Below, in pieces: positions 4,261 through 50,842 of a DNA stretch of 64,000 bases. A program made the translations under genes and the position numbers. The stretch comes from an uncultured archaeon (GTDB taxonomy: Archaea; Aenigmatarchaeota; Aenigmatarchaeia; QMZP01; QMZT01). Positions within the stretch are counted from its first letter, which is position 1, and every line of letters starts with the position of its first letter. The notes beneath the pieces were generated by a model. The model saw only the letters and a program-made list of their open reading frames with translations, made no database searches and was not told the DNA's origin. The stretch covers positions 1 through 64,000 of the forward strand of contig CAYYKJ010000007.1 of assembly GCA_964441265.1 (NCBI GenBank). The letters run 5' to 3'.

Positions 4261-5706
4261 TCAGTAGGCCTTCGCGAAATAAACCATATGTTTAGATTGC
4301 TTCTTGCAGTGGATGCACTGTCCCTTCCTGATGTCGCCCTCGATGAGCCTTATGGTTGCCGAGGTGTCTTCCTTTATCTTCTCCTCGCAGGACTCGTTCC
4401 CGCACCAGTGCGCCTTAACCAGCCTGCCTTCCCTGATCTGCCTTTTCAGGTCCTCGTAGTTCCCGGCTTTGACCGTGCTCGATTCCAGGAAGCTCTTCGC
4501 CTTCGCATAGAGGTTGTTTTGGATGTCTTCCAGAATGGATTTCGCTTTTTTGGTCAGGAGCTTCCTCCTTATCGGTATCTTCTCTCCGGTGTCCCTCCTG
4601 ACCCCCATGACCTGCTTGCTTTCGATGTCCCTCGGGCCGATCTCTATCCTGAGGGGCACACCCTTCATCTCCCATTCGTTGAACTTCCATCCGGGGGAGT
4701 ATTCGTCCCTGTCATCAAGCTTGACGGAGAAATCCCCGGACAGCTCTTTCTCCAGTTTGGAGGCCTCCCTGAGTACGGTCTTCCTGTTGCTCGTCTTGTA
4801 TATGGGGACGATGACCATCTGCAGGGGGGCTATCCTGGGAGGCAGCACCAGACCTTTGTCGTCCCCGTGGGTCATGACGACCGAACCTATCAGCCTGGTG
4901 GATATTCCCCAGGATGTCTGCCAAGCGTGCCTGTCCTCCTTGTCTTTGTCCTTGAACTCTATGTCGAAAACCTTGGCGAAATGCTGGCCGAGATTGTGGG
5001 TGGTTCCCATCTGCAGTGCTTTCCCGTCAGGCATCAACGCCTCGAGCGTCATGGTGTAAAGCGCGCCCGCGAATGCCTCGCTTTTGGATTTCCTGCCCAT
5101 CAGGACGGGGACGGCGAGCTGGCTTTCCATTAGCTCCCTGTACTGCTCCGCCCTGAGCATGGCCTCGTCGCTGGCTTCCCTGTTGGTGGCGTGCGCTGTG
5201 TGGCCCTCCTGCCACAGGAACTCCCTCGTCCGGAGGAAAAGCCTCGTGGCCTTGCATTCCCACCTGACGATGTTGCACCACTGGTTTATCCGGAGGGGGA
5301 GATCTCTCCAGGACCTGATCCATTTTGAAAAGGTATCGTAGATTATGGTTTCCGAGGTCGGCCTGAGGGCATACCTCTCGTCGCTCTGCTCTTTCTTCTC
5401 TATCCAGGCGACCTCAGGGGTGAAGCCCTCGAAGTGTTCGGCTTCCTTCTGAAAGAAGGATTCTGGTATGAACATGGGGAAATAGGCGTTCTCCACACCG
5501 GTCTCCTTGATCTTCCTGTCGAACCATCCCCTGATCTTTTCCCACATGGAATACGCATAAGGCTTGATCACCATGCACCCGCTTATGGGGGCGTAATCGG
5601 CGAGGCCGGACTTCTGGACCACCTCGTTGTACCAGTCCGAAAAATTCTCCTCCCTTGTCGCCCCGATGCCGACCAGCTCTTCCCTGCTCTTGTTGACCAT
5701 GATCAC
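4261..5706 (-). CDS. proS: prolyl-tRNA synthetase (archaeal/eukaryal type)
   Basis: 481 aa with class II synthetase motifs and a C-terminal zinc-binding CxxC...CxxC; archaeal-type ProRS architecture. Confidence 0.9.
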   Translation of the reverse strand: MIMVNKSREELVGIGATREENFSDWYNEVVQKSGLADYAPISGCMVIKPYAYSMWEKIRGWFDRKIKETGVENAYFPMFIPESFFQKEAEHFEGFTPEVAWIEKKEQSDERYALRPTSETIIYDTFSKWIRSWRDLPLRINQWCNIVRWECKATRLFLRTREFLWQEGHTAHATNREASDEAMLRAEQYRELMESQLAVPVLMGRKSKSEAFAGALYTMTLEALMPDGKALQMGTTHNLGQHFAKVFDIEFKDKDKEDRHAWQTSWGISTRLIGSVVMTHGDDKGLVLPPRIAPLQMVIVPIYKTSNRKTVLREASKLEKELSGDFSVKLDDRDEYSPGWKFNEWEMKGVPLRIEIGPRDIESKQVMGVRRDTGEKIPIRRKLLTKKAKSILEDIQNNLYAKAKSFLESSTVKAGNYEDLKRQIREGRLVKAHWCGNESCEEKIKEDTSATIRLIEGDIRKGQCIHCKKQSKHMVYFAKAY

Positions 5707-5925: not shown

Positions 5926-6393
5926 ATGGGGTGTTGCTGTATGGATTTCAAGCTGGCTACTGTGTTAGGTGTTGTCATGGCCGCTGTGGTCATATCTTCT
6001 GCTTCTTTCGTTTGGGTGTTTTCCGTTTCCATGGTGAGCCCGGTTTCGATGGCTCTCGTTATAATTCTTTCCCTGACCTTCGGATGGATATACTTCGGTA
6101 AGGAGGAATCGACCGCGAAAGAGGCGATGGCCCTGGGCATATTCTGGATCATAATAGCCATAATACTTGAGGCGGCGGCGGCGGTCGGGTTCTTCCAGCA
6201 GTCCGATTACTTCAAGGTCAACCCCTCCATATACGCGGGTTACCTGCTCATGCTGGTTTTTACGGTGGCGGCTTTCTTCCTGAGGAGAAGACTCGGAAAG
6301 TCCTCGGAAGAGCAGGCCGAGCCCGGAAAGGACAAGGAAAAAGAGATGGCAATGAGGGGCGAGGCATTGCTGGAGCCCTCAATCGCCTCCTGA
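5926..6393 (+). CDS. hypothetical membrane protein
   Basis: Hydrophobic segments with a charged C-terminus; start uncertain. Confidence 0.4.
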   Translation: MGCCCMDFKLATVLGVVMAAVVISSASFVWVFSVSMVSPVSMALVIILSLTFGWIYFGKEESTAKEAMALGIFWIIIAIILEAAAAVGFFQQSDYFKVNPSIYAGYLLMLVFTVAAFFLRRRLGKSSEEQAEPGKDKEKEMAMRGEALLEPSIAS

Positions 6394-6410
6394 ACGACCT
6401 TTTAAAGGCA

Positions 6411-6430
6411 TATTTTTATATATATTACTT
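6411..6430 (+). promoter_or_regulatory. TATA-like element upstream of the rRNA operon
   Basis: 'tttttatatatatt' lies about 130 nt upstream of the 16S 5' end. Confidence 0.35.
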
Positions 6431-7455
6431 GCTATAGATATAATTCGTGCGTATAGATGAGAGCTTGACACCGGCTCCCGGCGACGGGAGCGTTAAGTTT
6501 GAGGTAGGAGAATGCAAAACCCTTGTTGAAGCTCATATGAGGAGCTTTATGCGTAACGCCAATCCCAATTCCGGCTGATCCTGCCGGAGGCCACTGCTAT
6601 TCGGATTTGGCTAAGCCATGCTCGTTCTGGGTTAAACCAGAGCAAAGAGCTCAGTAACACGTAGTCAACCTGCCCTTGGGTCCGGACGAATCTCGGGAAA
6701 CTGAGGATAATGCCGGATAGGCAAAAAGATCTGGAAACGTGTGACAACTTGGATTTCAATCACGAGTTGTCCTTCGCCGGTTTGACTTTTTGTCCAACCA
6801 AGGATGGGACTGCGGCTGATTAGGTTGTTGCCAGGCTAAAATGGACTGACGTTCATTTCGAATGTCTTTCTTTAGATTCCTGGCAAGCCGATAATCAGTA
6901 CGGGCCTTGAGAGAGGAAGCCCGGAGATGGATTCTGAGACAAGAATCCAGGCCCTACGGGGTGCAGCAGGCGCGAAACTTTCCCAATGTGCGCAAGCATG
7001 AGGAAGAGATCCGGAGTGTTCTCCTTTTGGGGGAACTTTTGTCAAGTCCAAAAAAGATTGACGGCTGATTCTGTGAATCCATGCCGTCGCTCTGTGGTTA
7101 GCTTGGCGAATAAGTGGTGGGTAATACGGGTGCCAGCCGCCGCGGTAATACCCGAGCCACAAGTGGTGGCCACGTTTATTGGGCTTAAAGTGTTCGTAGC
7201 CGGTTCTGCCAGTCCTTGGTGAAATCATCTGGTAAACCAGGTGGCTTGCTGAGGATACTACAGGACTTGGGACCGGGAGAGGTCAAGGGTACTGACGGGG
7301 TAGGGGTAAAAAGCGATTGTTGACCCGGATTTTTCTGATCAGGTCAACCTTCCTTACATTCCTATAATCCTGTCAGGACCACCAGTGGCGAAGGCGCTTG
7401 ACTAGAACGGATCCGACGGTGAGGGACGAAAGCCAGGGGATCGAATGGGATTAGA

Positions 7456-7799
7456 TATGGGTTCAGGAAAAGGTATTTATTTCCAGTAATTAACTATAAA
7501 TAGATTAGAATGCCCAGTATTTCAAGTGATATTTGTAGGATGACTCTGAAGGACATATCAGTAAAAGGCAAGCGGAAATTGATTTCACAACAACTTCGAA
7601 GGAGATTTGCCAATATATACTTGAATATTTTAAAATAATTGGACTAAAAACAAGTGGCAGAGTCAGAAGCCGAAGAAAGAACAGGGAGTACGAAATAAGG
7701 ATATACGGCAAGGAAAATTTAATACTTTTTTCAAAACATGTCAAGATAAAACATCCTGATAAAATTGCCAGAATGAAGAAATTCCTGTCCCACTAAAAA
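7456..7799 (+). mobile_element. 16S intron 1 with decayed LAGLIDADG endonuclease remnant
   Basis: Inserted after GGATTAGATA and AT-rich. Two short out-of-frame reading frames resemble homing-endonuclease fragments (…EICQYILEYFKIIGLKTSGRV…EYEIRIYGKENLILF…). Confidence 0.45.
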
Positions 7800-8061
7800 C
7801 CCCAGTAGTCCTGGCTGTAAACGATACCCACTAGACATTAGGGATCTTACGTGGGTTCCTGGTGTCGCAGGAAAACCGCTAAGTGGGTCGCCTGGGAAGT
7901 ACGGTCGCAAGGCTGAAACTTAAGGGAATTGGCGGGGGAGCACACAAGGGGTGGAGGCTGCGGTTCAATTCGATTCAACGCGGGGAACCTTACCAGAGGC
8001 GAGGCAGGCACTCACTGTCACTAATGGTAAGGTTTATTAGCACCGTAATCAACAATTAAAC

Positions 8062-8640
8062 ATGAGGAACATAGCAGACCTCTCAAAAATAACACCGAAA
8101 GAAAGGGGATACCTGATTGGATTTTACATCGGAGACGGTAACATATTTGAACAAAATTCTTCAGGGATTTACAGGCTCAGATATTTTCTCGGCCTTAAAG
8201 AAAAACCAATACAGGAATCCCTTGTTGAAATATTGTCCAAGTTATTTGCGAATATAAGGACCTACGATGGACAGGGAAATACAATTGTAATTGAAATTCA
8301 TTCAAAACAGTTCATAACTTGGGTGAAAAACAACTGTACAAAGGATGGGATTAAAAACAAAAGCTCATCTAAAAGATTCAAAATTGGTGTTATAGAGGGT
8401 CTGATAGACAGCGATGGATATGTTCAAAGAAACTATGTTGAGATAACAACTGTCAATGAGAAACTGCGAAAAAATATTATTGAAATTTTGAGCGGTTTCA
8501 AAACAAAACCAAATGTTAGAAGTTATTCTTCTCCAATTTCCGGAAGAACCGGATGGAGAGTTGGTTTTTCTTTAAAAAACGGTGCTTTTAAACCTACCAA
8601 GTGGGTTCTTGCCCCTCAAACAGCAGAAAATGCTGCGTAA
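8062..8640 (+). CDS. LAGLIDADG homing endonuclease (double-motif) in 16S intron 2
   Basis: LIGFYIGDGNI and IEGLIDSDGYV motifs. Lies inside a 16S insertion (~8013-8679). Confidence 0.8.
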   Translation: MRNIADLSKITPKERGYLIGFYIGDGNIFEQNSSGIYRLRYFLGLKEKPIQESLVEILSKLFANIRTYDGQGNTIVIEIHSKQFITWVKNNCTKDGIKNKSSSKRFKIGVIEGLIDSDGYVQRNYVEITTVNEKLRKNIIEILSGFKTKPNVRSYSSPISGRTGWRVGFSLKNGAFKPTKWVLAPQTAENAA

Positions 8641-8795
8641 GGTTTACCATGAAGACATACCGTGCGCGCATCTGCAATGAAGGTCAGGTTGAAGGCCTTA
8701 CCAGACAAGCTGAGAAGTAGTGCATGGCCGTCGTCATTCCACGAGGGCAAAACCGGCATCTGATATTCTTCTTTTCGTCCGAAAAGCAGATAAGG

Positions 8796-9368
8796 ATGCC
8801 TCCCGAATTAAGAATCATGAAAACTGTTGGTTTTCAGAAAAAACAAATCAAATGCTCCGAAAATGATGCCTATATTTTAGGATTGTTTAGGGCAGACGGG
8901 TATACTTGGACAGGAACATTCGGAATAACTAATAGAAATCAGAAAATATTAGAAAAAGCTGCAAAAATCCTTTCAAAATTCGGCCAAAACAAATGGAGAA
9001 ATGATGAGAAAGGATTTTTCAGGGTTTGCATAACAAGTAGGCCCAGAAAAAGGGAATTTCTGAAGGCAATGGAAAATACAGAAAAATCATTAATTGATAA
9101 CAAATTAATGATTGCATCATATTTCGCAGGTAAATATGATGGAGATGGTTCTTATTGGAAAAAAACAAGACTGAGGTTCAAAATAACATACGGGAAACCT
9201 GAAAATATAGAATTTGATCAAAAGCTATTGCTCTCCGTTGGTATTTCAAGTAAAATAAGAAAATATAAAAATGCAAATGCATTTGACCTTGAAATATCAA
9301 GTGGTGATGCTTTAGCATTTTTTGACCTGATAAAAAATATTCGATTAAATGTCCTCTTGGAACGATAA
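8796..9368 (+). CDS. LAGLIDADG homing endonuclease (double-motif) in 16S intron 3
   Basis: ILGLFRADGYT and YFAGKYDGDGSY motifs. The ORF track starts at 8724 inside the exon; internal Met 8796 is more likely. Confidence 0.7.
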   Translation: MPPELRIMKTVGFQKKQIKCSENDAYILGLFRADGYTWTGTFGITNRNQKILEKAAKILSKFGQNKWRNDEKGFFRVCITSRPRKREFLKAMENTEKSLIDNKLMIASYFAGKYDGDGSYWKKTRLRFKITYGKPENIEFDQKLLLSVGISSKIRKYKNANAFDLEISSGDALAFFDLIKNIRLNVLLER

Positions 9369-9927
9369 AGTTCGTGCCGTGAGAGCTTGATGCTTTCATG
9401 TCATAAAGTGCCATGTTCCGGTAAAGGTGTCGTCTTAAGTGACGTAACGAACAAGACCCATACCTCATGTTGCTATCCAACTCTGTCGGAGCACTCATGA
9501 GGGACCGCTGGCGATAAGCCAGAGGAAGGTGTGGTCGACGGCAGGTCCGTATGCCCTGAATCCTCTGGGTAACACGCGGCCTACAATGGATGGGACAATG
9601 GGATGCCACTCCGAAAGGAGGAGCTAATCCTTCAAACCCATTCCTGGTCCGGATCGAGGGCTGCAACCCGCCCTCGTGAAGCCGAAATCCCTAGTAGTCG
9701 CTGGTTAGCAAGTGCGAAAGTCGCCGCGAAAGCGGTAGCGCTTTCGGGTCTAAAATCTAGCGTCGAATAAGTTCCTGCTCCTTGCACACACTGCCCGTCA
9801 AGCCATCCGAGTGGAGTTTTGGCGAGGTCTTCCCTTCGGGGAGGATCAAACCACAACTTTGCAAGGAGGGCTAACTCCAATAGTAATATTTTGGAGAACA
9901 ATTATTATTGGGGGCCTAAAGTCGTAA

Positions 9928-10196: not shown

Positions 10197-10402
10197 GGGC
10201 CGGTAGATCAACGGTGCGTTTCAAAAGGGAGCTGACATTTCACCCCACAACGAAACGTTTCGGGGTGTTGTGGGTCAATCGCTCCCGCTGCGTTAAAGAT
10301 CGCTGCCCTTGCAAGGCAGAGGCTTCGGGTTCAAAGCGACCCTTTTGCTCAAAGAAGAAACAGCTGATGCTTGCGGGGGTCGGGAAAATCCCGACCGGTC
10401 CA
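10197..10402 (+). tRNA. tRNA-Ala(TGC) in the 16S-23S spacer with two non-canonical introns (D-loop and T-loop)
   Basis: Acceptor GGGCCGG/CCGGTCC with G3:U70 and A73. D-stem GATC/GATC. Anticodon arm CTGCC-CTTGCAA-GGCAG. T-stem TCGGG/CCCGA with the T-loop TTCAAA...T split by an insertion. Confidence 0.6.
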
Positions 10403-12005
10403 TGAGAAATTGCATGGCGGGTCCGCCGGAGAGCAAATCCGGGCCGGGCTGGCCGCATTCGCGCACGTAAATATTTAAATATATAGTAACATATAATACA
10501 TGCTCTCTGCAGCCGTGCAGGGCTGGGAGGGCCAAATCGAATGCATTGGTTGACTATCAGACTGTTCAGAGTCGGTCACGCCCCGGTGACAGCGGGCTTG
10601 GTTGGCAGGCAGATAGTCGAGGCGACTCGGTATCTATTTTCTGGACAGTTTCGGGAATACCATGCTTGTAATGTTGAAATGAGGCTCGTTACTGCAAATA
10701 ACGGGCTGATTTGAGAAGGATGATGACCACTTTGACGGTCACGTGAGCACCGGCATAGCAGGGCGCGCCTCGGCGGGCCGTGTTACCGGCTGCGATGAAA
10801 GAGTGAACACCATTAGAGTCCTTTGATGATTCCATAGGCGAGTTGTCCCGACCACAAGGGTCTGTTACGCTGCATGGTGGCTGACTTGGCTCGGAAAACG
10901 AAGAGGGACGTGGCAAGCTGCGAAAAGCCCGGGGTAGGTGCAAGCAGCCTTTGAACCCGGGATTTCCTAATGGGACTTCCCAGCATTTGCTATTCGCAAT
11001 AGCGAAGGTTGACGGCCTGGATTGAAACATCTTATTAGGGCCAGGAAGAGAAAGCAATCGCGATTCCCTGAGTAAAGGCGATCGAAAGGGGAACAGGACA
11101 AACCGAATCCCCTATTGAGAGATAGGGGACATGTGGGGTTTGGACCTGCGCTCGGCCCAACTTCCCAACCCGAAGTGACCTGGAACGGTTCACGACAAAG
11201 GGTGAGAGTCCCGTAGGGATAAGGAAGAGGGTTGATATCAGGTATCCGGAGTACCGTTGGTTGGAAATCCAGCGGGAATGCGGGAGACACTAACTCCCAA
11301 TCCTAAACATAATCCGAGTCCGATAGCGTACTAGTACGGTGACGGAAAGTCGAAAAGCATCCTTAACAGGAGCTGAAAAGAGCCTAAAGCCATGTAGTTA
11401 TAGGTTGGTAAGGCACATGCTTGCATGTGTTTTGCCGTCCGTTTTGAAACACGCGGCAAGGAGTTTATCTCCGTGGCGAGGATAACGTGATGGTATCCAT
11501 AGCGAAAGCGAGAACCCCGCAGCTTGCGAGGGGGTCAGGTGTGAAAGCGCCTACAGTCACGGGGATAATACCTGAAGCCGGTCGATCTAGCCCTGGGCAG
11601 GGTGAAGTCTAGCGAAAGCTGGATGGAGGCCCGTTACCGTTGCTGAGATTCAAATCGCTCAGGTGACCTGGGGCTAGGAGTGAAAATGGGGTGACGGCCA
11701 GAATTCATCTGTTTAGGCCGTCGTTCCTTCAACGCTAATCGAGATCGGCAATAGCTGGTTCCTCTCTAAATGTATCTGAGTACAGCCTGGCCGGAGGTAG
11801 AATATGGGGTAAAGATACTGATTGCGTAACCAAGGATCGAAAGGTCCAGTTGTGCTGTCAAACTCAGAATCCATGTTCGCCGTAGAAGGCTGGAGTGGGG
11901 GTGCCGGGGTAAGCTCGGTATCCGAAAGGGAAAGAACCCAGACTGAAGTTAAGGTCCCTAAATGTTGTCTAATCGAAGAAAAGCGTCATCAACCATAAAC
12001 AATAG

Positions 12006-12037
<32 letters not shown>

Positions 12038-12404
12038 CGAGCGAAGGCTTGGATTTATCGGATTAAGCCTTCATTCGAAAGAGAGAGTGTGTAATAACTC
12101 ACCTATCTAGGTTGATGGCCTTGAAAATGGACGGGACTAAGGCAACTACCGATACTTTGGATCACGAAAGTGATAGCGTAGGGAGGTGTCCTGCTGGGGC
12201 AGAAGTTCTTCCGTAAGGGGGAATGGACCTTGCAGGAATAAGAATCTTGCTGATAGTAGCAGCACTAGTGGAGTGAGAATCTCCACCACCTAAAGGGCTA
12301 GGGTTCCTCAGCAACGATTAAAAGCTTGACGCTGAATGGTCAGCGTCGGTTTGTCGAATCAGCTGAGGGTTAGTCGGTCCTAAGGCGTCTCCTAACCGGA
12401 GGAT

Positions 12405-12436
<32 letters not shown>

Positions 12437-13090
12437 CATGGAAGTACGTGCGGCGACGCAAGCCCGGTTCCAGACTTTTCGGGATAGGCTGACCATTTCG
12501 ATGGTTAACCCGTTAAGCCTGCGGAGTACCGTAATGGTGAGAAGCAGGTGAAGCGGGGAATAGCCCGTGTATTCGGGTTTGGCTGAATCCTGGAAACCGT
12601 GAAAATGGAAACGGGAAGGATCTTTCATGTCCGTACCGAGAACCGTTACTGGTGACCCTTGCTGAAAAGGTTAAGGTGTATTAGGTTAAATTACCCTAGG
12701 GAATTCGGCAAATTAGCCCCGAATCTTTGGTATGAGGGGTGCCTAGTCCCTTGGCTCAGCCAAGAAGACTAGGTCGCAGTGACAAGGGGGGTCCGACTGT
12801 TTAACAAATGGGAAGCGCAGATTTAATGATTATCTGTTCTTTTCGTGCTTCAGTCGGAAATCGAACCCTCGGACAGGCCAAGTTAGTATGAAAGGACGTT
12901 TTTACAAATTTCAAACTTTCCGTTCTTCCCAGTTAAAAAACATAGGGGGCTGCTAGTCGGAAACGATTTGTATAGCTCCTGAGGCCTGCCCAGTGCGAGT
13001 GTGTCAAGCTGGACTTCAATCCAGTGAAGCCCTCGTAAACGGCGGCGGTAACTCTGACCGTTGACTTAGGCGGTCACAAAATTTGGCTAT

Positions 13091-13738
13091 ATGCGGGAAC
13101 TCCATAGTATTCCGGGTCCTGAGAAAGGAAAAATCCCGGAAACGATGACGGATAATCCGCAGGAAACTGTTTGCTTCATGGGGGTGGTTACCATGAAGAA
13201 AGTCGAACAAGGGTTTAGTAAACTCTTGAGAAAAAAGCGTTACCTGAGATTTTATATCTTGGGTTTCGTTGATGCCGAAGGTTGTTTTAGTGTGTCATTG
13301 AAGCAACAGAAAACGACGAGATTCGGCTGGGTATTGGATCCGTTATTCCAGGTAACTCAACACAAAAATAACAGGATTGTACTCGAAAAGATAAAAGGAG
13401 AATTGGGTTGCGGAAGGATAATTGATAAACCCGGTCAAAAAGATACACTGATATATTTGGTTGATAACCGAAGACAACTGAACGAGAAAATAATTCCCTT
13501 CTTTGAAAAGTACAGGCTTGTTTCGAAGGACAGTGATTTCCAGAAATTCAAGAGAATCGTCAGAGGACTTGAAAAAAAGGAACACGGCGAATTGGAATCT
13601 TTCTTGAAACTGATCAAAAAAGCCTTCGAAATGAATCTGGGAGGGAAACAAAGAAGATACAAACTCGAAGAAGTCTTGAAAAAATTGGGAAGCAGACAGA
13701 ATCCCCAGAGGCCATACGCCAGACACTCAAGTGAGTGA
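13091..13738 (+). CDS. LAGLIDADG homing endonuclease (single-motif) in 23S intron
   Basis: ILGFVDAEGCF motif; the ORF lies inside a 23S insertion. The true start may be an internal Met. Confidence 0.75.
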   Translation: MRELHSIPGPEKGKIPETMTDNPQETVCFMGVVTMKKVEQGFSKLLRKKRYLRFYILGFVDAEGCFSVSLKQQKTTRFGWVLDPLFQVTQHKNNRIVLEKIKGELGCGRIIDKPGQKDTLIYLVDNRRQLNEKIIPFFEKYRLVSKDSDFQKFKRIVRGLEKKEHGELESFLKLIKKAFEMNLGGKQRRYKLEEVLKKLGSRQNPQRPYARHSSE

Positions 13739-14398
13739 AGATATGGTCCGACTCTTACAGTAATGTAAGTAAGTTGCTTAAGGTAGCGTAGTCCCTTGCC
13801 GATTAATTGTCGGCCTGCATCAAGGGCTTAACGAGATCCCCGCTGTCCTGGGGTAATGCCTAGTGAAATTAATTGTCCAGTGCATATTCTGGAGACCTTC
13901 AGTGGGACGAGAAGACCCCATTGAGCTTTACTGCAGTCTACTGCTGTGATATGATAATGGTTGCACAGTGTAGGTGGGAGCGTCGAACCCGCGTCTTTGG
14001 GTGCGGGGAATGCGACAATGTAACACCACCCTACCGTTCTCATATTGCTTATCCTTCGGGAGACACCAGTTGATGGGCAGTTTGGCTGGGGCGGTACGCC
14101 TCTGATAAGGGATCAGAGGTGCCCTAAGTTCGGCTCATTCCGGTCAGAAATCGGAATTAGAGTGCAAGAGCAAAAGCCGGACTGATAGGATTCTGCAAAG
14201 TGAGGAATCCTAACGCGAAAGCGTGGTCTAGCGATCCGCTGTGTCTTTATTAGATGAAAGCCAGCTCTGACAGAAAAGTTACCATGGGGATAATCAACCA
14301 GAGAGTTGATAGGTTTTGAAAGCCATGTCAGGGGATATCTTTTCCTTTCTGTATTTTGAGACGAAAGTAAGATAAATCCCATTAATGAAATAATAAGC

Positions 14399-14953
14399 AT
14401 GGATTTGATTGAAAAGGGATTCGTTTTCGGTGCCAGCGAAGACGGAACTGTTTACCATAGACCTTCAAGAAATCAATATAACATAGAAATCGAGCAGAAA
14501 GTTCAAAAATGGCTTGAGATTGTGAAGAAAGCAGTGCAGAAAACATATAACAAAAACGTGAGGATAGCAAGGACTTCTAAAGGTTATTTCAGGTTGCTTG
14601 TTTATTCCAAAAAACTGCATAATGATCTCAAATCTTTCAGAAAGGATTATTCGAAAATCCTAACCGAAAACAAAGACTTCCAGACCGGCTTCCTTCGCGG
14701 ATTTTTTGATGCGGAGGGAACGGTCCACAACAAAAGATATTCGATTAGGGTGGCATCGAAGAATAAGCAAACAATCCTTGTAATCAAGAAAATGCTTAAT
14801 AAATTCAATATTAAAACCGGTAAAATTCATGCCGATAAGACGGCATATGTTTTGCCTCTGTACGGAAAAGATAATCTAGAAAGATTCGATTCCGTTGTCA
14901 GTTTTAGACATGAAGAAAAGAAAGAAAGACTTTCAAAACTTCTCTCTGGTTGA
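14399..14953 (+). CDS. LAGLIDADG homing endonuclease (single-motif) in 23S intron
   Basis: LRGFFDAEGTV motif; inserted after GGGGATAA in 23S domain V. Confidence 0.75.
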   Translation: MDLIEKGFVFGASEDGTVYHRPSRNQYNIEIEQKVQKWLEIVKKAVQKTYNKNVRIARTSKGYFRLLVYSKKLHNDLKSFRKDYSKILTENKDFQTGFLRGFFDAEGTVHNKRYSIRVASKNKQTILVIKKMLNKFNIKTGKIHADKTAYVLPLYGKDNLERFDSVVSFRHEEKKERLSKLLSG

Positions 14954-15525
14954 TCCCGAAAATGGAGTCGTGACGCGTGAGAGTCCATAGCGTCATAACT
15001 TGGTTAACTTTCTAAAAGGTCTTTGATTTCCAAGTTAGACATGGATATATCGACCGCGTTCGTTGCTTCTCCGCCGTCGGCTCGGCTCTTCCTGGACGTG
15101 CAGCAGCGTCCAAGGGTGGGGGTGTTCACCCATCAAAGAGCCACGTTAGCTGGGTTAAATACGGTGCGAGCCAGTATGGTCTATATCTACTGAAGGTGTC
15201 GGGAACCTGAGGGGAAGAAGCACTCAGTACGAAAGGAACAGTGCATCGTGGCCTCTGGTGTACCAGTTGTGTATACATCGCTGGGTAGCTATGCCATTGT
15301 GGATAAGGGCTGAAAGCATCTAAGCTCGAAGCCGCTCCCGAAAATAGGTTCCCACTCCTCAAACTGATTGGCAACAACCGGTGCGAGGGAAAGGATCCGG
15401 TATACGACCGGGTTGATAGAATCGGGGTGTAAGTACCGAGGCAACGAGGTATTCAGCCTACGATCACTAATACTCCAAATGGCCCTGGTTAAAGGGACAA
15501 CTCGCCGCTATTATTTTTTTATCAT

Positions 15526-20907: not shown

Positions 20908-21147
20908 TGGGCCCGACGGGAATTCCACGTTGCCTTTTTGGCAGGCGTAGGTTTTGTGACCTGCGCCAGCGTCCGTAAAAGCTACGCTTCGAACCCGCGA
21001 CACCCGGATATCTCCAGCGAAAGAAGCGCCGTTGCGCCTCTTGCCTTGTCATCCCCGTTAAGGTCATCATATCCGATAAGAGTCCGGTGCTCTAAATGTC
21101 CGGAAGTCCGCTTATGCGGAAAACCCGCCAGACTGAGCTACGGGCCC
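20908..21147 (-). tRNA. tRNA-Lys(CTT) with three introns (D-loop, anticodon loop 37/38, T-loop)
   Basis: Minus strand: GGGCCCG-TA-GCTC-AGTCTGG[intron]TAGAGC-A-CCGGA-CTCTTA[intron]A-TCCGG-GTGTC-GCGGG-TTCGAA[intron]T-CCCGT-CGGGCCC-A. The seven acceptor pairs are complementary. Confidence 0.55.
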
Positions 21148-33873: not shown

Positions 33874-34965
33874 ATGCCTGAGATAAAGCAGATCCCGGAG
33901 GACTTCGTGGTCAGGGAGATCTTCCGGAAGAAGGAACCCGGGGAAGGAGGGAAGACCGAGGACAGCCACTACGTATGGTTCACGCTCAAGAAGACCAACT
34001 GGAGCCTTTTCCGGGCGGTCAAAATGATCTCAAGGAAGCTGGGGGTCTCCGTGAAGAGATTCGGATATGCCGGCACCAAGGACAAGAGGGCGGTGACATA
34101 CCAGAAGGTTTCTGTGTGGAACGTCCCGATGGAGCGGCTGGAGTCGGTCAGGATAAAGGACATCGAGCTATCCGGTTTCGAGGAGAGGAGGGAGAGGATA
34201 AATCTGGGGGACCTGAAAGGCAACCGCTTCGAGATAACGGTAAGGGACATCGGGAAAGGGAAAAGGAAGGGTATGGAGAAGAACCTGGAGAGGATAAAAA
34301 GGGAGGGCATGATCAATTTTTACGGAAAGCAGAGGTTCGGGGTGAGGGGCAACACACACCTGGTCGGAAAGGAGATAATAAGGGACCGTCTGAAGGAGGC
34401 GGTCTGGACGTACCTGACTCATGGGAGAGAAAGGGAAAGGAACGAAGACGCCAGGTCGTTCAGGGAGAACCTGGAAAAGGGCGGGGATTTCATGGCCGCC
34501 ATTAAGGAGTGCCCGGGTTTCCTGGGGACCGAGAAGACACTTTTGCAGCACCTCGCCCGGGAACCGAACGATTACGCGGGAGCGCTGAGGAGGATACCGA
34601 AAAAGCTCCGGAGGATATTCGTCCATGCCTACCAGTCATACCTGTGGAACGAGATCGCGAAGGTTACGGAAGAGAAAACAATACCTATTATAGGTTTCGA
34701 TACCGATCTCTCGAAATACGAGTCGGGAAAAGAAATGAAGAGAATCCTCGGAGGGGAGGGGATAAAACCGGGCGATTTCAGGCTCAAGTCAATGCCCGAG
34801 CTCTCCGCCGAGGGGAGCGAGAGGAAAAGGATAGTTAGACCGAAGAAACTCGAATGGTCCTTCGGGGAGGATGAAATCAACGAGGGAAAGCTGAAATGCC
34901 TGCTGAAGTTCGGGATACCCCCGGGCTCCTACGCAACGGTCCTCGTGGACGGGGTGCTGAAATGA
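33874..34965 (+). CDS. truD: tRNA pseudouridine synthase TruD/Pus7
   Basis: FGYAGTKDKRAVTYQ catalytic-Asp motif; N-terminal IPEDFVVREI. Confidence 0.8.
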   Translation: MPEIKQIPEDFVVREIFRKKEPGEGGKTEDSHYVWFTLKKTNWSLFRAVKMISRKLGVSVKRFGYAGTKDKRAVTYQKVSVWNVPMERLESVRIKDIELSGFEERRERINLGDLKGNRFEITVRDIGKGKRKGMEKNLERIKREGMINFYGKQRFGVRGNTHLVGKEIIRDRLKEAVWTYLTHGRERERNEDARSFRENLEKGGDFMAAIKECPGFLGTEKTLLQHLAREPNDYAGALRRIPKKLRRIFVHAYQSYLWNEIAKVTEEKTIPIIGFDTDLSKYESGKEMKRILGGEGIKPGDFRLKSMPELSAEGSERKRIVRPKKLEWSFGEDEINEGKLKCLLKFGIPPGSYATVLVDGVLK

Positions 34966-47310: not shown

Positions 47311-48156
47311 TCATTCGAGACGTTTTTCGTATTCTTCTATAAACGTATCGAATTCTTTTTGATCGAATGTTTCCTTCCATGGCGGTTTCAAATTATCTTT
47401 ATAATTTACAAATCTTTCCAGTTCTTTCATTCTAGATTCCCAGTTCAATTTACTTGGTTTAAGGTGCCTGTCCACAAGCTCCCAGTCCAGTATCATAATG
47501 CCGAAGGGATTATTTTTTTCGGGCCTCATGAGGTAAACATTTCCGGGGTGGAAATCCCTTTGAAGAATTCCCTTTTCATCCATGGTACCGTGCATCTTTA
47601 TCATTGTCTCAGAAAGAGGTTCGATTACAATCCTTTTCATTTCTTCGGATGAGAGATTCACATGACCCTTTGTTTTAAGGAAATCGTCTAGGAACGATCC
47701 CGGTGGGTATTGTCTCATGACAATGTAAAAATTTGGAGATTCGTGTAAATTTAGTCCTGATAATATCACTTCAGAAGAAGTTCTTATCAATCTCAAATTG
47801 TGTACGTTAGAGGAAGAATATATTTCATTGAGTCCCCTTTCCTCTACCATCTTCTCTTTGTCTTTTCTTGTAATATCGTGCATCAAGTCAATGTTCTTGG
47901 CGGGTTCCATTCTCTTGATATATAAGTTCCTGTTACCTTTCCTCCATTCTAGTATGGTCGACCTGTCACCTTCATAGACAGTCCGTTTTATTTCCCCTGT
48001 TTTTATTTTTTCTTCCAAAAACCCTCTCGGGTTCCTTTTGAAATCAATCGGTAACTTGAAATCAATTATTGGATTATATATTTCTCTGCCCAATTTCAGA
48101 TGTCCATAACTTTCTAGTACATCTTTTTTGTGAAATTTTGTTTTTTCCATAACCAA
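47311..48156 (-). CDS. atypical protein kinase-like protein
   Basis: ILQRDFHPGNVYL resembles the HRDLKPxN catalytic loop, and ILDWELVD the DFG-like site. The gene is markedly AT-rich relative to its neighbours. Confidence 0.5.
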   Translation of the reverse strand: MVMEKTKFHKKDVLESYGHLKLGREIYNPIIDFKLPIDFKRNPRGFLEEKIKTGEIKRTVYEGDRSTILEWRKGNRNLYIKRMEPAKNIDLMHDITRKDKEKMVEERGLNEIYSSSNVHNLRLIRTSSEVILSGLNLHESPNFYIVMRQYPPGSFLDDFLKTKGHVNLSSEEMKRIVIEPLSETMIKMHGTMDEKGILQRDFHPGNVYLMRPEKNNPFGIMILDWELVDRHLKPSKLNWESRMKELERFVNYKDNLKPPWKETFDQKEFDTFIEEYEKRLE

Positions 48157-48253
48157 ATAAGCAAAAGTTTATTTATAAATGGTTACTATTTAGTAGTTAT
48201 TTTTTATAATTCGCATATAAATTTAAAGATTAGAATAAAGAAATTGATAACAC

Positions 48254-48447
48254 GGGGTTATGGTGTAGCTTGGTCTAGCTGATCCCTGGTGGGACAGGCG
48301 CCAAAAGCATCGGAGCTTCGGGCCAATTCCGCTCTAACGGGCGGGATAGCGAAACGGCTTCAGACCTGGGTTCAAAAGCGCGGTAATCGAAACAACTGTT
48401 TCCGCGGGGAATATTCCCGCCTGCGCGGACATTCCCAGTAACCCCAT
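48254..48447 (+). tRNA. tRNA-like gene with T-loop intron (and further insertions); anticodon unresolved
   Basis: Acceptor GGGGTTA/TAACCCC. T-arm CTGGG-TTCAAA[intron]T-CCCAG. D-loop-like AGCTTGGTCTAGC. ~118 nt of extra sequence. Confidence 0.4.
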
Positions 48448-48667
48448 TAGAAAGCATTTATTCACGGTGATTTAGAACAGGCCCTTGATGAAGAGCACCG
48501 TGGTCACCAGGACGGTGAAGCATATGAGGAAGAAAGCCCCCTGAATGAATGCCATCCTCATGAATTCGTTTTCGGTTTTTATTTTTTCCATAGAAACCAT
48601 TCCTGTAGGATTATGGTATTGTATCCCAAGAATATATGATGCTCCTAAAAAAATATTTTTTTTAAAA

Positions 48668-50842
48668 TTATTCTATTCCCTTCCGGGACTTTATCTGGTT
48701 TATCACCTTCTGCTCCAGGTCCTTGGTGAGCGGCTCGTGTATGACGTCTATCAGCCAGTAGAATCCGAGTCCGGAAGTAGAGGACTTCAGAGATGAGTTG
48801 AAACCGAACATGTCCGCCACCGGAAGCTTGGCCTTTATGGTGGTGGTCCCCCTCTCGTCCTTCATTTCGAGTATCTGTCCCCTCCTGTTCTGGACCTCCT
48901 TCATGGCCCCGCTGACCTGCTCCGTGGGGACGTCTATCCTTATTATCTGTTTCGGCTCGAGTATGTACGCCCCGGCCTTTATCATGGCGTTCCTCATTGC
49001 CGACCTGGTGGCGGGTATCACCTGGGCGGGACCCCTGTGTATGGCATCCTCGTGGAGCTTCGCGTCCACGATCTTGATTTTGACGCCGGTGCAGGGCTCC
49101 CTTGCCAGAGGACCCTCGCTCATGGCCTCGGTGAAGGACTGCTTGAGCATCTCCATCACCTCGAGTATGGCCTGAACCCCCCTGGTCATGTCTATGAATA
49201 TGCATTTGTTGTGAATGAGCTTGATCTTCTTGGACTCGTCCCTGTCGAATCCCAGCTCAACCAGCTGGTCCTGAAGTTCGACCATCTTCTTTTTCACTTC
49301 CATGTCCTGGATTTCCCCTCTCATCATCGCCTGGTAGACCTTCGGTTCGAGCGGCTCCGCGACCATGTAGAACCTGTTGTGCTTGTTGGGCGATTTCCCC
49401 TCCACGGGGGACGGGGTCATGGATTTCACGGATTCCCTGTATATGACTATGGGAGAGGAAACGTCGACGTCTATGTTCTCTTCCTTCAGCGGCCTCTCTA
49501 TCTTTGCGTTTATGTGTAGCTCTCCCAGGCCGGAGACCAGGTATTCGCCTGTCTCCTCGTTTATCTTGACTTCAAGGGTAGGGTCTTCCTTTCCGGTCCT
49601 TCTGAGGAACTCGATGAGCTTGGAGAGCTGCTTGGGGCTCTTGGGCTCTATGGCCTTGGTCACCACGGGCTCGAATATGTGCCTTATGGACTCGAAACTG
49701 GGCATTTCGTTGTCCGGATCGCTTATGGTTTCCCCGGAGTATGCCTCCTTCAGTCCCACTATACCGACTATGTTGCCCGCATCCACTTCCTCCATGTTGA
49801 CCCTCTGCTGGCCCTTGTAAACGGAAACCTGCTGGAGCTTTTGCGTCTGTTTGCTCCCGACAAGCAGGACCTCTTGGCCGGTCTTCATCTTCCCGGAGAA
49901 TATCCTCACCGTGGCCACGTAACCGGCATGCGGGTCGGGGTAAAGTTTGGTCACGACTCCCGCCAGCTTACCGTCAGGATCGCATTTCATCATGTCCTTG
50001 GCAACTTCTGATTCGTTGCTCCCGGGCCATATCTTCGGGATCCTGTAGGCCTGGGATTCGAGAGGATCGGGGAGGTGCTTGATGACCATGTTGAGGACTA
50101 TCTCGTGAAGGGGGGCTTTCTCTGCCAGCTCCTTCTCCCCCTCCGCCCCCTTCTCGGTCATCTCTATTATGTCCTTGAAGCTCATCCCCGTCTTCTTCAT
50201 GAAGGGTATTGAGATGGCCCAGTTCTTCACGGCGGATCCGAATGCAACGCCGCCGTCGTTGACGCTGACCATCCATTTGTTCTTGTATTCCTTCTCGGCG
50301 TATTTCTGTATGAGCATGTTGACTTCGGTTATTATCTTCTTGAACTTTTCCTGCATATCCTCGGGTGTCAGCTTTAGCTCCTTTATCAGCCTGTCCACCT
50401 TGTTTATGAAAAGTATCGGCTTCACCCGCTCCTTGAGGGCCTGCCTGATGACCGTTTCGGTCTGGGGCATGCACCCCTCCACGGCGTCTGTGACCACCAC
50501 AACGCCGTCGACGGCCCTCATTGCCCTGGTGACATCTCCCCCGAAGTCCACGTGGCCTGGGGTGTCTATGAGGTTGATGAGATACTTTTGTCCCTCCCAG
50601 TCGTGCACCATTGATACGTTTGCAGAATAAATCGTTATTCCCCTTTCCTGTTCCTGCTCCACGAAATCCATCGCCAGCTGCTGGCCGGCAAGTTCGCTGG
50701 ATATCATGCCGGCTCCCGCTAGCAGGTTGTCGGAAAGGGTGGTTTTTCCGTGATCTATATGGGCCACTATTCCTATGTTTCTGATCTGCTCGGGCTTCCT
50801 CATCAGTTCCTTGACGAGAAGATTCATGTTTTCCTTGGTCAT
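48668..50842 (-). CDS. fusA: elongation factor 2 (aEF-2)
   Basis: IRNIGIVAHIDHGKTTLSD G-domain; 724 aa; a diphthamide-region His is present. Confidence 0.95.
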   Translation of the reverse strand: MTKENMNLLVKELMRKPEQIRNIGIVAHIDHGKTTLSDNLLAGAGMISSELAGQQLAMDFVEQEQERGITIYSANVSMVHDWEGQKYLINLIDTPGHVDFGGDVTRAMRAVDGVVVVTDAVEGCMPQTETVIRQALKERVKPILFINKVDRLIKELKLTPEDMQEKFKKIITEVNMLIQKYAEKEYKNKWMVSVNDGGVAFGSAVKNWAISIPFMKKTGMSFKDIIEMTEKGAEGEKELAEKAPLHEIVLNMVIKHLPDPLESQAYRIPKIWPGSNESEVAKDMMKCDPDGKLAGVVTKLYPDPHAGYVATVRIFSGKMKTGQEVLLVGSKQTQKLQQVSVYKGQQRVNMEEVDAGNIVGIVGLKEAYSGETISDPDNEMPSFESIRHIFEPVVTKAIEPKSPKQLSKLIEFLRRTGKEDPTLEVKINEETGEYLVSGLGELHINAKIERPLKEENIDVDVSSPIVIYRESVKSMTPSPVEGKSPNKHNRFYMVAEPLEPKVYQAMMRGEIQDMEVKKKMVELQDQLVELGFDRDESKKIKLIHNKCIFIDMTRGVQAILEVMEMLKQSFTEAMSEGPLAREPCTGVKIKIVDAKLHEDAIHRGPAQVIPATRSAMRNAMIKAGAYILEPKQIIRIDVPTEQVSGAMKEVQNRRGQILEMKDERGTTTIKAKLPVADMFGFNSSLKSSTSGLGFYWLIDVIHEPLTKDLEQKVINQIKSRKGIE

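What the first reader, a model, noticed from the sequence alone, without database searches (positions are those of the whole stretch)
48254..48447. Third multi-intron tRNA-like gene whose anticodon could not be resolved, again with a 59/60 T-loop intron
A perfect 7-bp acceptor stem (GGGGTTA/TAACCCC) and a T-arm CTGGG-TTCAAA|57-nt insert|T-CCCAG are clear. The D and anticodon regions carry about 60 extra nt (three TGGT-containing D-loop-like repeats). I could not assign an anticodon, and one candidate loop reads CUCUAAC (anticodon CUA). It is either a heavily interrupted tRNA or a tRNA-derived element.
Basis: seen in the sequence. Interest (0 to 1): 0.55.

Follow-up and report, generated by a model that had tools for sequence, protein, structure and literature searches.

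The report
Three-intron proline tRNA gene (anticodon CGG)
This stretch is a proline tRNA gene (anticodon CGG) of an uncultured DPANN archaeon, broken by three short protein-spliced introns; that gene type is already known, but standard tRNA finders miss it and relatives carry different intron sets.

Summary
Window 48254-48446 (+) is a tRNA gene interrupted three times. Removing 48277-48305 (29 nt, D-loop 20b/21), 48323-48355 (33 nt, canonical 37/38) and 48377-48432 (56 nt, T-loop 59/60) gives a 75-nt cloverleaf that ARAGORN calls tRNA-Pro(CGG). The unresolved anticodon is therefore CGG. The 'CUCUAAC/CUA' loop is the tip of the hairpin inside the 37/38 intron.

Orthologues beside the same EF-2 gene in ten Candidatus Aenigmatarchaeota genomes carry other subsets of introns at four sites (17/17a, 20b/21, 37/38, 59/60). 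One lacks both the D-loop and anticodon introns, and another lacks the anticodon and T-loop introns, so the exon junctions are seen joined in nature. An uninterrupted tRNA-Pro(CGG) also exists in a metagenome.

The spliced orthologues pair at 100% of cloverleaf positions, with compensatory changes at 8 of 21 pairs. In 19 of 21 introns the 4-bp central helix of the bulge-helix-bulge (BHB) motif is perfect at the predicted register. The window's T-loop intron has only 2 of 4 pairs, a relaxed motif.

Multi-intron tRNAs and 59/60 introns are already known in Thermoproteales, ARMAN-2 and Asgard archaea. This is a new member of a known kind. Expression and splicing were not tested.

The parts
48214..48230 (+). 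A/T-rich TATA-like box (ATATAAATTTAAAGA) about 25-40 nt upstream of the mature 5' end; putative archaeal promoter.
   Evidence: Sequence. The 5' flank ...AAATTTAAAGAT(T/A)AGAATAAAG(A/G)(A/G)ATTGATAAC... is nearly identical upstream of the L001 and L003 orthologues. Promoter function is inferred, not tested.
48254..48276 (+). Exon 1 (23 nt): acceptor 5' strand GGGGUUA, U8, G9, D-stem 5' strand GUGU, and D-loop AGCUUGGUCU (positions 14-20b, with G18G19).
   Evidence: It is identical or near-identical in L001, L003 and 63 metagenome loci.
48277..48305 (+). Intron 1 (29 nt) in the D-loop between 20b and 21. The position could equally be written 21/22, because an A is repeated at the junction. The BHB central helix is UGGU (48271-48274) with GCCA (48300-48303), and the bulges are CU|A and AA|A. 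There is almost no outer helix (HBh' type).
   Evidence: Central helix 4/4 pairs, inner helix 3 bp, outer helix 1 bp. The MFE fold shows this helix and the 3-nt 5' bulge. This intron is absent from the L003, L007 and L017 orthologues, where exons 1 and 2 are contiguous.
48306..48322 (+). Exon 2 (17 nt): A21, D-stem 3' strand GCAU, C26, anticodon-stem 5' strand GGAGC, and U32 U33 C34 G35 G36 G37. The anticodon CGG is at 48319-48321.
   Evidence: ARAGORN assigns tRNA-Pro(cgg). The anticodon loop UUCGGG(G/A) is invariant in 10 orthologues.
48323..48355 (+). Intron 2 (33 nt) at the canonical 37/38 position, a strict hBHBh' motif. The central helix is UUCG (32-35, 48317-48320) with CGAA (48350-48353).
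   Evidence: Central helix 4/4 pairs and outer helix 5 bp, which is the anticodon stem. The BHB conformation is -18.3 kcal/mol against an MFE of -20.5. The first 12 nt are identical to the 37/38 intron of L017. The intron is absent in L001, L003 and L007.
48356..48376 (+). Exon 3 (21 nt): G38, anticodon-stem 3' strand GCUUC, variable loop AGAC, T-stem 5' strand CUGGG, and T-loop UUCAAA (54-59).
48377..48432 (+). Intron 3 (56 nt) in the T-loop at 59/60, a relaxed BHB. The outer helix is the T stem (5 bp), and the inner helix is GCGCGG/CUGCGC (6 bp) carrying two small hairpins. The central helix UUCA/GGAC forms only 2 of 4 pairs. A register shifted by 1 nt (CGGA) gives 3 pairs with 4-nt bulges, so the 3' cut is uncertain by ±1 nt.
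   Evidence: Intron-free orthologues (L001, L005-L007, L036) have the T-loop UUCAAAU, which fixes the expected junction. The 59/60 introns of five of the six other intron-bearing orthologues pair U54-A57 with the intron's 3' end at 4/4; L017 pairs at 3/4.
48433..48446 (+). Exon 4 (14 nt): U60, T-stem 3' strand CCCAG, acceptor 3' strand UAACCCC, and discriminator A73. No CCA is encoded (TTA follows).

Best explanation
The region is a functional gene for tRNA-Pro(CGG) of a Candidatus Aenigmatarchaeota (DPANN) archaeon, split into four exons (23, 17, 21 and 14 nt) by three bulge-helix-bulge (BHB) introns in the D-loop (20b/21), at the canonical 37/38 site and in the T-loop (59/60).

Inferred mechanism:
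1. The 193-nt precursor is transcribed from an upstream TATA-like box.
2. In the precursor, exon tetranucleotides pair with the last paired tetranucleotide of each intron: UGGU (17a-20) with GCCA, UUCG (32-35) with CGAA, and UUCA (54-57) with GGAC, the last only partly.
3. Each pairing forms a 4-bp helix flanked by two 3-nt bulges. The archaeal splicing endonuclease EndA cuts after the second bulge nucleotide on each strand.
4. An RtcB-type ligase joins the exons, CCA is added after transcription, and the 75-nt tRNA is charged by the archaeal-type ProRS encoded in the same window.

G18G19 and U54-C56, the partners that form the tRNA elbow, are held in intron helices. The L-shape can therefore form only after introns 1 and 3 are removed.

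Shown: the gene structure, the splice junctions (by comparison with relatives) and the BHB geometry. Inferred: transcription, cleavage, ligation and charging.
For: - The spliced product is accepted as tRNA-Pro(cgg), and a blind BHB enumeration gives the same solution.
- Orthologues lie beside EF-2 in Aenigmatarchaeota MAGs. L003 has exons 1, 2 and 3 contiguous, and L001 has exons 2, 3 and 4 contiguous. L009 and L011 have the same three intron sites.
- L005 and L006 carry only a 37/38 intron and score 46-51 bits on Rfam tRNA RF00005, whose gathering score is 29.
- Metagenome locus L036 holds an uninterrupted tRNA-Pro(cgg) that is 64/75 identical to the spliced product.
- In the cloverleaf, 210 of 210 cells are paired and 8 of 21 pairs show changes on both sides. 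No shuffle out of 500 reaches the covariation score, and slid registers pair at only 34-49%.
- The BHB central helix is 4/4 in 19 of 21 introns across 10 genes at the register that gives the conserved mature sequence.
- The 5' flank is conserved.
- ProRS is encoded at 4261-5706 (-).
- A 59/60 intron with a relaxed BHB in another DPANN archaeon, ARMAN-2, is cleaved in vitro by its EndA (PMC3239211).
Against: - There is no expression or splicing evidence.
- The T-loop intron of this particular gene has a degenerate central helix (2/4), unlike its orthologues. Its cleavage needs a broad-specificity enzyme.
- No EndA or RtcB gene was found among the 45 window ORFs scanned, so the enzyme type is unknown.
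- C26 and the G10-U25 and U13-G22 pairs make a weak D stem.
- When the acceptor and T arms are kept, ARAGORN accepts some splice combination in about 5% of shuffles.
- The spliced orthologue alignment was partly built by hand.
Confidence: 0.88

Rival explanations
1. It is a decaying tRNA-Pro(CGG) pseudogene. The gene is recognisable, but the degenerate BHB of the T-loop intron blocks splicing, so no mature tRNA is made.
For: The central helix of intron 3 has only 2 of 4 pairs, against 4/4 in 19 of the 20 other introns examined. The D stem is weak.
Against: All 21 cloverleaf pairs are intact, as are all conserved tRNA nucleotides: U8, A14, G18G19, A21, U33, G53, U54 U55 C56, A58 and C61. The 5' flank is conserved with L001 and L003. 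The inner and outer helices of intron 3 are strong (6 and 5 bp). Relaxed hBH motifs at 59/60 are cleaved in ARMAN-2 (PMC3239211). No other tRNA-Pro is detectable in the window.
Confidence: 0.07
2. It is a suppressor-type or unusual tRNA with anticodon CUA, the reader's 'CUCUAAC' loop.
For: The string CUCUAAC is present at 48332-48338.
Against: It forms a 4-nt UAAC loop closing a 9-bp stem, part of the 11-position inner hairpin of the 37/38 intron, not a 7-nt loop on a 5-bp stem. L017 has GAAA there and L009 a different hairpin, and the intron is missing altogether in L001, L003 and L007. The blind enumeration found no CUA solution.
Confidence: 0.01
3. It is a tRNA-derived mobile-element remnant or an integration (att) site rather than a gene.
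For: The gene's orientation relative to EF-2 differs between relatives. A 281-aa ORF with no Pfam match lies next to it.
Against: The full-length gene is present at the same locus in 11 genomes, with compensatory substitutions. There are no duplicated tRNA 3' halves or integrase nearby. The inserted segments obey BHB geometry.
Confidence: 0.02

Closest known systems
Multi-intron tRNA genes of Thermoproteales (Pyrobaculum, Thermofilum, Caldivirga), as reported by Sugahara et al. 2007/2008 and Chan et al. 2011 (PMC3218864) and reviewed in PMC4033280
   Same: Up to three BHB introns per tRNA gene at canonical and non-canonical sites. The motifs range from strict to relaxed. Similar introns occur in different tRNAs, which has been read as transposition. 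Standard tRNA finders miss the genes.
   Different: The host here is a DPANN archaeon (Aenigmatarchaeota), not a crenarchaeote. The endonuclease type is unknown; in Thermoproteales it is the (αβ)2 form with the Crenarchaea-specific loop. In this lineage the introns cluster at four recurrent sites, and all four tRNA genes in the window carry a 59/60 intron.
ARMAN-2 (Candidatus Micrarchaeum) disrupted tRNAs: pre-tRNA-Cys(GCA) with a 59/60 intron and pre-tRNA-Pro(GGG) with 53/54 and 59/60 introns (PMC3239211)
   Same: DPANN host. A T-loop 59/60 intron with a relaxed BHB, shown there to be cleaved in vitro. A high proportion of disrupted tRNA genes.
   Different: A different phylum. ARMAN-2 uses a three-unit ε2 EndA, and whether Aenigmatarchaeota have it was not tested. 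The gene here has three introns spread over the D, anticodon and T loops.
[quoted passage not shown]
   Same: The same three-arm layout of introns with BHB motifs. Stepwise splicing was shown there by RT-PCR, with the D and T introns removed before the 37/38 intron.
   Different: A eukaryotic red alga. This is an analogy, not homology of the introns.
Atabeyarchaeia/Freyarchaeia (Asgard) tRNA genes, 92-95% of which contain introns and over half of which have multiple introns (PMC11291895)
   Same: A recently recognised lineage-wide proliferation of non-canonical and multiple tRNA introns that is partly invisible to tRNAscan-SE.
   Different: A different superphylum. The part of their table that I read records at most three observed introns per gene.

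Membership tests
tRNA (cloverleaf; Rfam RF00005) | 7-bp acceptor stem, 4-bp D stem, 5-bp anticodon stem with a 7-nt loop, 5-bp T stem with a 7-nt loop, and a discriminator base | tested here: met
   Met after in-silico removal of three segments. ARAGORN draws a standard 75-nt cloverleaf. All 21 pairs are standard in 10 orthologues.
tRNA (cloverleaf; Rfam RF00005) | Direct match of the genomic sequence to the covariance model or to ARAGORN | tested here: not met
   No tRNA hit in the window at the gathering score, or at E ≤ 10 on 48150-48550. ARAGORN finds 0 genes. This is expected, because neither tool models D-loop or T-loop introns. Orthologues with only a 37/38 intron score 46-51 bits.
tRNA (cloverleaf; Rfam RF00005) | Conserved tertiary nucleotides: U8, A14, G18G19, A21, U33, G53, U54 U55 C56, A58, C61 | tested here: met
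   All are present in the spliced sequence, and all are invariant across orthologues.
tRNA (cloverleaf; Rfam RF00005) | Covariation that supports the helices | tested here: met
   8 pairs have changes on both sides. The covariation score is 0.471, against a shuffled mean of 0.173 (0 of 500 shuffles reach it) and 0.008-0.162 for slid registers. Caveat: I assembled the spliced orthologue sequences myself.
tRNA-Pro isoacceptor | Anticodon NGG with G35, G36 and G37, and an A73 discriminator. These identity features come from established knowledge of archaeal tRNA-Pro. | tested here: met
   The anticodon loop is UUCGGGG and the discriminator is A73. The product is 64/75 identical to an uninterrupted gene that ARAGORN calls tRNA-Pro(cgg). 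An archaeal-type ProRS is encoded in the window.
tRNA-Pro isoacceptor | Aminoacylation with proline | not testable with these tools
   Needs biochemistry.
Archaeal BHB (bulge-helix-bulge) introns | A 4-bp central helix flanked by two 3-nt bulges on opposite strands, with both cuts after the second bulge nucleotide giving the mature sequence | tested here: met
   Introns 1 and 2 have 4/4 central pairs at exactly the register that yields the conserved mature tRNA.
Archaeal BHB (bulge-helix-bulge) introns | The same BHB geometry for intron 3 (59/60) | tested here: inconclusive
   Only 2 of 4 central pairs form, or 3 of 4 with a 1-nt shift and 4-nt bulges. The outer and inner helices are strong (5 and 6 bp). 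This counts as a relaxed motif.
Archaeal BHB (bulge-helix-bulge) introns | Flanking outer (h) and inner (h') helices, the strict hBHBh' form | tested here: inconclusive
   Intron 2 has a 5-bp outer helix and an inner helix with one A·A mismatch, which is strict. Intron 1 has an outer helix of only 1 bp (HBh'), as do all D-loop introns in the orthologues.
Archaeal BHB (bulge-helix-bulge) introns | A splicing endonuclease (EndA) with broad specificity and an RtcB ligase encoded by the organism | not tested
   Neither was found among the 45 window ORFs scanned with Pfam. The rest of the genome is not available here.
Archaeal BHB (bulge-helix-bulge) introns | Excision in vivo or in vitro | not testable with these tools
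   Needs RNA-seq, RT-PCR or an enzyme assay.
Suppressor or Pyl-like tRNA(CUA) | CUA at positions 34-36 of a 7-nt loop on the anticodon stem, conserved in relatives | tested here: not met
   CUCUAAC lies in the hairpin of the 37/38 intron. It is not conserved, or is absent, in the orthologues.
Intron-encoded C/D box sRNA (as in the euryarchaeal tRNA-Trp intron) | A C box (RUGAUGA) and a D box (CUGA) near the intron ends | tested here: not met
   No RUGAUGA or UGAUG occurs anywhere in the 193 nt, and there is a single CUGA in intron 1.

The most novel reading that the evidence does not exclude
Aenigmatarchaeota may be a so far undescribed hot spot of BHB-intron proliferation and fast turnover within DPANN.

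- One orthologous tRNA-Pro(CGG) gene carries anything from 0 to 4 introns at four recurrent sites in genomes whose EF-2 proteins are 78-86% identical to the window's.
- One relative (L008) has four introns and a 6-nt micro-exon. That would exceed the maximum of three per tRNA stated in the literature I could read.
- All four tRNA genes in this window have a 59/60 T-loop intron.
- Related intron sequences occur in different tRNAs and at different sites, which implies that the introns move.

If this holds, the lineage would be a natural system for watching BHB-intron gain and loss. It would also be a warning that the 'missing tRNAs' of DPANN MAGs are an annotation artefact.
Probability: 0.45. 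Interest if true: 0.55.

Novelty: new member of a known kind. Interest (0 to 1): 0.35.

Why it matters
ARAGORN and Rfam found none of the four tRNA genes I identified in this 64-kb window. tRNA complements of Aenigmatarchaeota MAGs, and probably of other DPANN MAGs, will therefore be undercounted. Apparent tRNA loss could then be misread as genome reduction or as poor bin completeness.

The set of orthologues with different intron subsets gives direct, sequence-level support for the splice junctions. It also shows recent intron gain and loss, which bears on how BHB introns spread and how they co-evolve with the specificity of the splicing endonuclease.

For this single gene, the result is a corrected annotation: tRNA-Pro(CGG), not an unassignable or CUA tRNA.

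Tried and rejected
- **Standard finders on the raw sequence.** ARAGORN on the window and on 18 related loci found nothing here. Rfam found no tRNA at the gathering score or at E ≤ 10. These tools cannot see D-loop or T-loop introns.
- **CUA anticodon.** Rejected; it lies in the intron hairpin.
- **Other splice solutions.** The blind enumeration gave two other ARAGORN-accepted solutions: a 4-nt 'aaac' anticodon, and a 74-nt variant with a different D arm. Both are rejected because they disagree with the contiguous exon junctions seen in L001 and L003.
- **ARAGORN with longer products.** Allowing products up to 90 nt made it accept dozens of solutions for the other window tRNAs, so it is too permissive without comparative data.
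- **Source contig.** The exact-sequence look-up of EF-2 was not on record.
- **Metagenome scans.** The exact exon 3 gave 0 hits. A degenerate exon-1 pattern gave 63 loci, mostly tRNA-Pro(UGG) relatives.
- **Intron-to-intron similarity.** The three introns of this gene resemble none of the other window introns. Only the 37/38 intron matches another intron, that of L017.
- **C/D box sRNA in the introns.** None.
- **EndA or RtcB in the window.** Not among the 45 ORFs scanned.
- **Literature.** I found no paper on tRNA introns in Aenigm(at)archaeota in the held library. That is absence of evidence only.

Full report
**Context.** The window carries an archaeal rRNA operon with large insertions. Its EF-2 gene (48668-50842, minus strand; Pfam) is 74-86% identical to EF-2 of 17 MAGs, ten of them titled Candidatus Aenigmatarchaeota and seven 'uncultured archaeon' (an eighteenth, more distant match is 67% identical). 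The organism is therefore an uncultured DPANN archaeon. The finding lies 220 nt beyond the 3' end of EF-2, on the opposite strand. Next to it on the other side are a 281-aa ORF with no Pfam match, an A24-type prepilin peptidase and an S-layer protein.

**Checking the observation.** The T-loop insert is 56 nt rather than 57. ARAGORN and Rfam find no tRNA here. The whole 194-nt stretch nevertheless folds into a four-armed shape with the acceptor stem closed, at -83.7 kcal/mol and z = -3.96.

**Resolving the gene.** I applied the geometry of archaeal bulge-helix-bulge (BHB) introns, which is established knowledge. A BHB has a 4-bp central helix and two 3-nt bulges, and each strand is cut after the second bulge nucleotide. 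This identifies three introns:

| Intron | Window coordinates | Length | Position |
|---|---|---|---|
| 1 | 48277-48305 | 29 nt | D-loop, 20b/21 |
| 2 | 48323-48355 | 33 nt | anticodon loop, 37/38 |
| 3 | 48377-48432 | 56 nt | T-loop, 59/60 |

- Joining the four exons gives GGGGUUAUGGUGUAGCUUGGUCUAGCAUCGGAGCUUCGGGGGCUUCAGACCUGGGUUCAAAUCCCAGUAACCCCA. ARAGORN draws this as a standard 75-nt tRNA-Pro with anticodon CGG.
- As an unbiased test I listed every BHB-like candidate in the 193 nt (97 candidates). I combined up to four of them (283 combinations) and ran ARAGORN on all the products. The same three-intron tRNA-Pro(CGG) came out, plus two odd alternatives.
- Controls with the same procedure gave a full-length tRNA in 0 of 150 whole-sequence dinucleotide shuffles and in 0 of 200 random window segments. 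With the acceptor and T arms kept and the rest shuffled, the figure was 7 of 150. ARAGORN acceptance alone is thus only moderately specific.

**Comparative evidence, which is decisive.** Ten of the related genomes have an orthologous gene next to EF-2, each with a different set of introns.

| Locus | 17/17a | 20b/21 | 37/38 | 59/60 |
|---|---|---|---|---|
| window | – | 29 | 33 | 56 |
| L001 | – | 32 | – | – |
| L003 | – | – | – | 36 |
| L007 | 30 | – | – | – |
| L017 | 34 | – | 33 | 74 |
| L004 | – | 32 | 69 | 39 |
| L009 / L011 | – | 30 | 31 | 61 |
| L005 | – | – | 63 | – |
| L006 | – | – | 13 | – |
| L008 | 84 | 32 | 65 | 64 |

- The junctions between exons 1 and 2 and between exons 2 and 3 are contiguous DNA in L003. 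The junctions between exons 2 and 3 and between exons 3 and 4 are contiguous in L001. Nature has therefore already 'spliced' each junction in a close relative.
- L005 and L006, which have only the canonical intron, score 46.2 and 50.6 bits on Rfam tRNA, whose gathering score is 29.
- A metagenome locus, L036, holds an uninterrupted gene that ARAGORN calls tRNA-Pro(cgg). It is 64/75 identical to the window's spliced product.
- In the alignment of the ten spliced orthologues, every one of 210 cloverleaf cells is a standard pair. Eight of 21 pairs change on both sides; acceptor pairs 5-68, 6-67 and 7-66 take UA/CG/AU, CG/UA/GC and GC/AU. The covariation score is 0.471 against 0.173 for shuffles (0 of 500 reach it). 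Structures slid by 1-3 columns pair at only 34-49%.
- Across the 21 introns of these ten genes, the 4-bp central BHB helix is perfect in 19, has 3 of 4 pairs in one, and has 2 of 4 in one. This is at the register that yields the conserved mature sequence.
- At any one register, 4 of 4 pairs by chance would occur about 2% of the time. That figure is my own estimate from 6 of the 16 possible base combinations forming a pair.
- Caveat: where a boundary could slide over a repeated base, I chose the placement with the best BHB score.

**Anatomy of the three introns in the window.**

- *Intron 1.* UGGU (17a-20, containing G18G19) pairs with GCCA. The bulges are CU|A and AA|A and the inner helix has 3 bp. 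There is almost no outer helix, so it is an HBh'-type relaxed motif, like all the D-loop introns in the relatives.
- *Intron 2.* This is a textbook hBHBh'. This conformation costs only 2.2 kcal/mol more than the MFE.
- *Intron 3.* The outer helix is the T stem and there is a 6-bp inner helix. U54-A57 pair with the intron's 3' end at only 2 of 4 positions. Five of the six orthologues with a 59/60 intron show 4 of 4 there, and L017 shows 3 of 4. It is therefore a relaxed motif, and the exact 3' cut is uncertain by one nucleotide. The intron-free orthologues all have the T-loop UUCAAAU, which is what the proposed junction gives.

**How it most likely works.** What follows is inferred from established knowledge of archaeal tRNA splicing.

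1. Transcription starts from the conserved A/T-rich box about 30 nt upstream. The flank is nearly identical in L001 and L003.
2. The precursor folds into three BHB motifs.
3. EndA cleaves at the six bulges, and an RtcB-type ligase joins the exons.
4. CCA is added, since none is encoded.
5. The ProRS encoded at 4261-5706 charges the tRNA.

G18G19 and U54-C56 are held in intron helices, so the D-loop/T-loop elbow can form only after introns 1 and 3 are gone. In the red alga C. merolae, a tRNA with the same D, 37/38 and T-loop layout loses the outer introns first (PMC3728597). That is an analogy, not evidence for this gene.

Relaxed motifs need a broad-specificity EndA. Such enzymes are documented in DPANN: ARMAN-2's ε2 enzyme cuts a relaxed 59/60 intron in vitro (PMC3239211), and α4 enzymes with an 'L3' loop accompany disrupted tRNA genes in several DPANN lineages (PMC5829648). 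I found no EndA or RtcB among the 45 window ORFs scanned, so the enzyme type of this organism is untested.

**Rivals.**

- *Pseudogene whose T-loop intron can no longer be cut.* This is the only serious rival (about 0.07). The intact cloverleaf, the conserved tertiary bases and the conserved 5' flank argue against it.
- *tRNA(CUA).* Excluded by structure and by lack of conservation.
- *tRNA-derived element.* Nothing supports it beyond the variable orientation of the gene relative to EF-2.

**Comparison with what is known, and novelty.** Multi-intron tRNA genes with BHB introns at non-canonical sites are well described in several groups:

- Thermoproteales (PMC3218864, PMC4033280)
- ARMAN-2 (PMC3239211)
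- other DPANN and Asgard lineages (PMC5829648, PMC11291895)
- a red alga (PMC3728597)

The 59/60 site itself is documented in DPANN. I found no paper on tRNA introns in Aenigm(at)archaeota in the held library. The gene is thus a new member of a known kind in a lineage not yet described for this trait.

The more interesting material is lineage-level and lies mostly outside the finding:

- Intron sets differ among genomes whose EF-2 proteins are 78-86% identical to the window's.
- The L008 orthologue has four introns. Reviews state a maximum of three (PMC4033280, PMC3218864), and the part of the Asgard table I read records at most three observed.
- All four tRNA genes of this window have a 59/60 intron.
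- Intron sequence is shared between a tRNA-Pro in L009 and the tRNA-Ala of this window.

**Verdict.** Confidence in a functional three-intron tRNA-Pro(CGG) gene is 0.88, and interest is 0.35.

Noticed in passing
window 2554-2719 (+): Another interrupted tRNA gene missed by ARAGORN and Rfam. It has acceptor GCGGAGG/CCTCCGC and discriminator U73. The most plausible splice solution is tRNA-Cys(GCA) with a 58-nt 37/38 intron and a 38-nt 59/60 intron whose central helix UUCG/CGAA is perfect. ARAGORN also accepted other solutions (His).
   Followed up: partly
window 10197-10401 (+): A tRNA-Ala(UGC) gene with G3:U70 lies in the 16S-23S spacer. It is interrupted by an 81-nt D-loop intron and a 53-nt 59/60 T-loop intron. 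The standard finders do not detect it.
   Followed up: partly
window 20909-21147 (-): A tRNA-Lys(CUU) gene with three introns: D-loop 32 nt, 37/38 67 nt and 59/60 66 nt. Its 37/38 intron contains a C-box-like AUGAUGA and a GAUGA, but I saw no clear D box. With the other three, all four tRNA genes I identified in the window carry a 59/60 intron.
   Followed up: partly
L008 (CAZTJN010000001.1) 6284-6603 (+): This orthologue of the tRNA-Pro(CGG) gene appears to have four introns: 17/17a 84 nt, 20b/21 32 nt, 37/38 65 nt and 59/60 64 nt. A 6-nt micro-exon, UGGUCU, lies between the first two. All four have 4/4 central BHB pairs. Reviews I could read give three as the maximum per tRNA.
   Followed up: partly
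L009 6438-6498 and window 10336-10388; also L004 37/38 intron: The T-loop intron of tRNA-Pro in L009 and L011 shares two 16-nt blocks (94% identical) with the T-loop intron of the window's tRNA-Ala. It also shares a 13-nt motif, GCUGACGCUUGCG, with the 37/38 intron of L004. This suggests intron families that move between tRNAs and between sites.
   Followed up: partly
window 6568-9917 and 10853-15490 (+): The 16S and 23S rRNA genes span 3350 and 4638 nt, against model lengths of 1478 and 2987. Both therefore carry large insertions, either introns or expansion segments. I did not examine them.
   Followed up: no
window about 48460-48600 (-): A small ORF of about 47 aa lies between EF-2 and the tRNA. 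It has a hydrophobic C-terminal half (...AFFLICFTVLVTTVLFIKGLF*). A similar C-terminus is readable at the same place in L003. It may be a conserved small membrane protein.
   Followed up: no
window 4261-5706 (-) and 33874-34965 (+): An archaeal-type prolyl-tRNA synthetase, the cognate enzyme of the tRNA studied, and a TruD/Pus7-type tRNA pseudouridine synthase are encoded in the same window.
   Followed up: partly
loci L001-L017 near EF-2: The tRNA-Pro gene is convergent with EF-2 in the window, L001, L003, L005 and L006. It is co-directional in L002, L004, L007-L009, L011 and L017. The window also has an extra 281-aa ORF with no Pfam match (47311-48156) between the tRNA and the prepilin peptidase. 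This points to a local rearrangement around the tRNA.
   Followed up: no
metagenome loci L022, L051, L059, L067, L071, L074, L078, L041, L056: Related tRNA-Pro(UGG) genes with the same acceptor stem GGGGUUA/UAACCCC carry zero, one or two introns (37/38 and/or T-loop) of very different lengths. The T-loop introns reach about 114 nt.
   Followed up: partly
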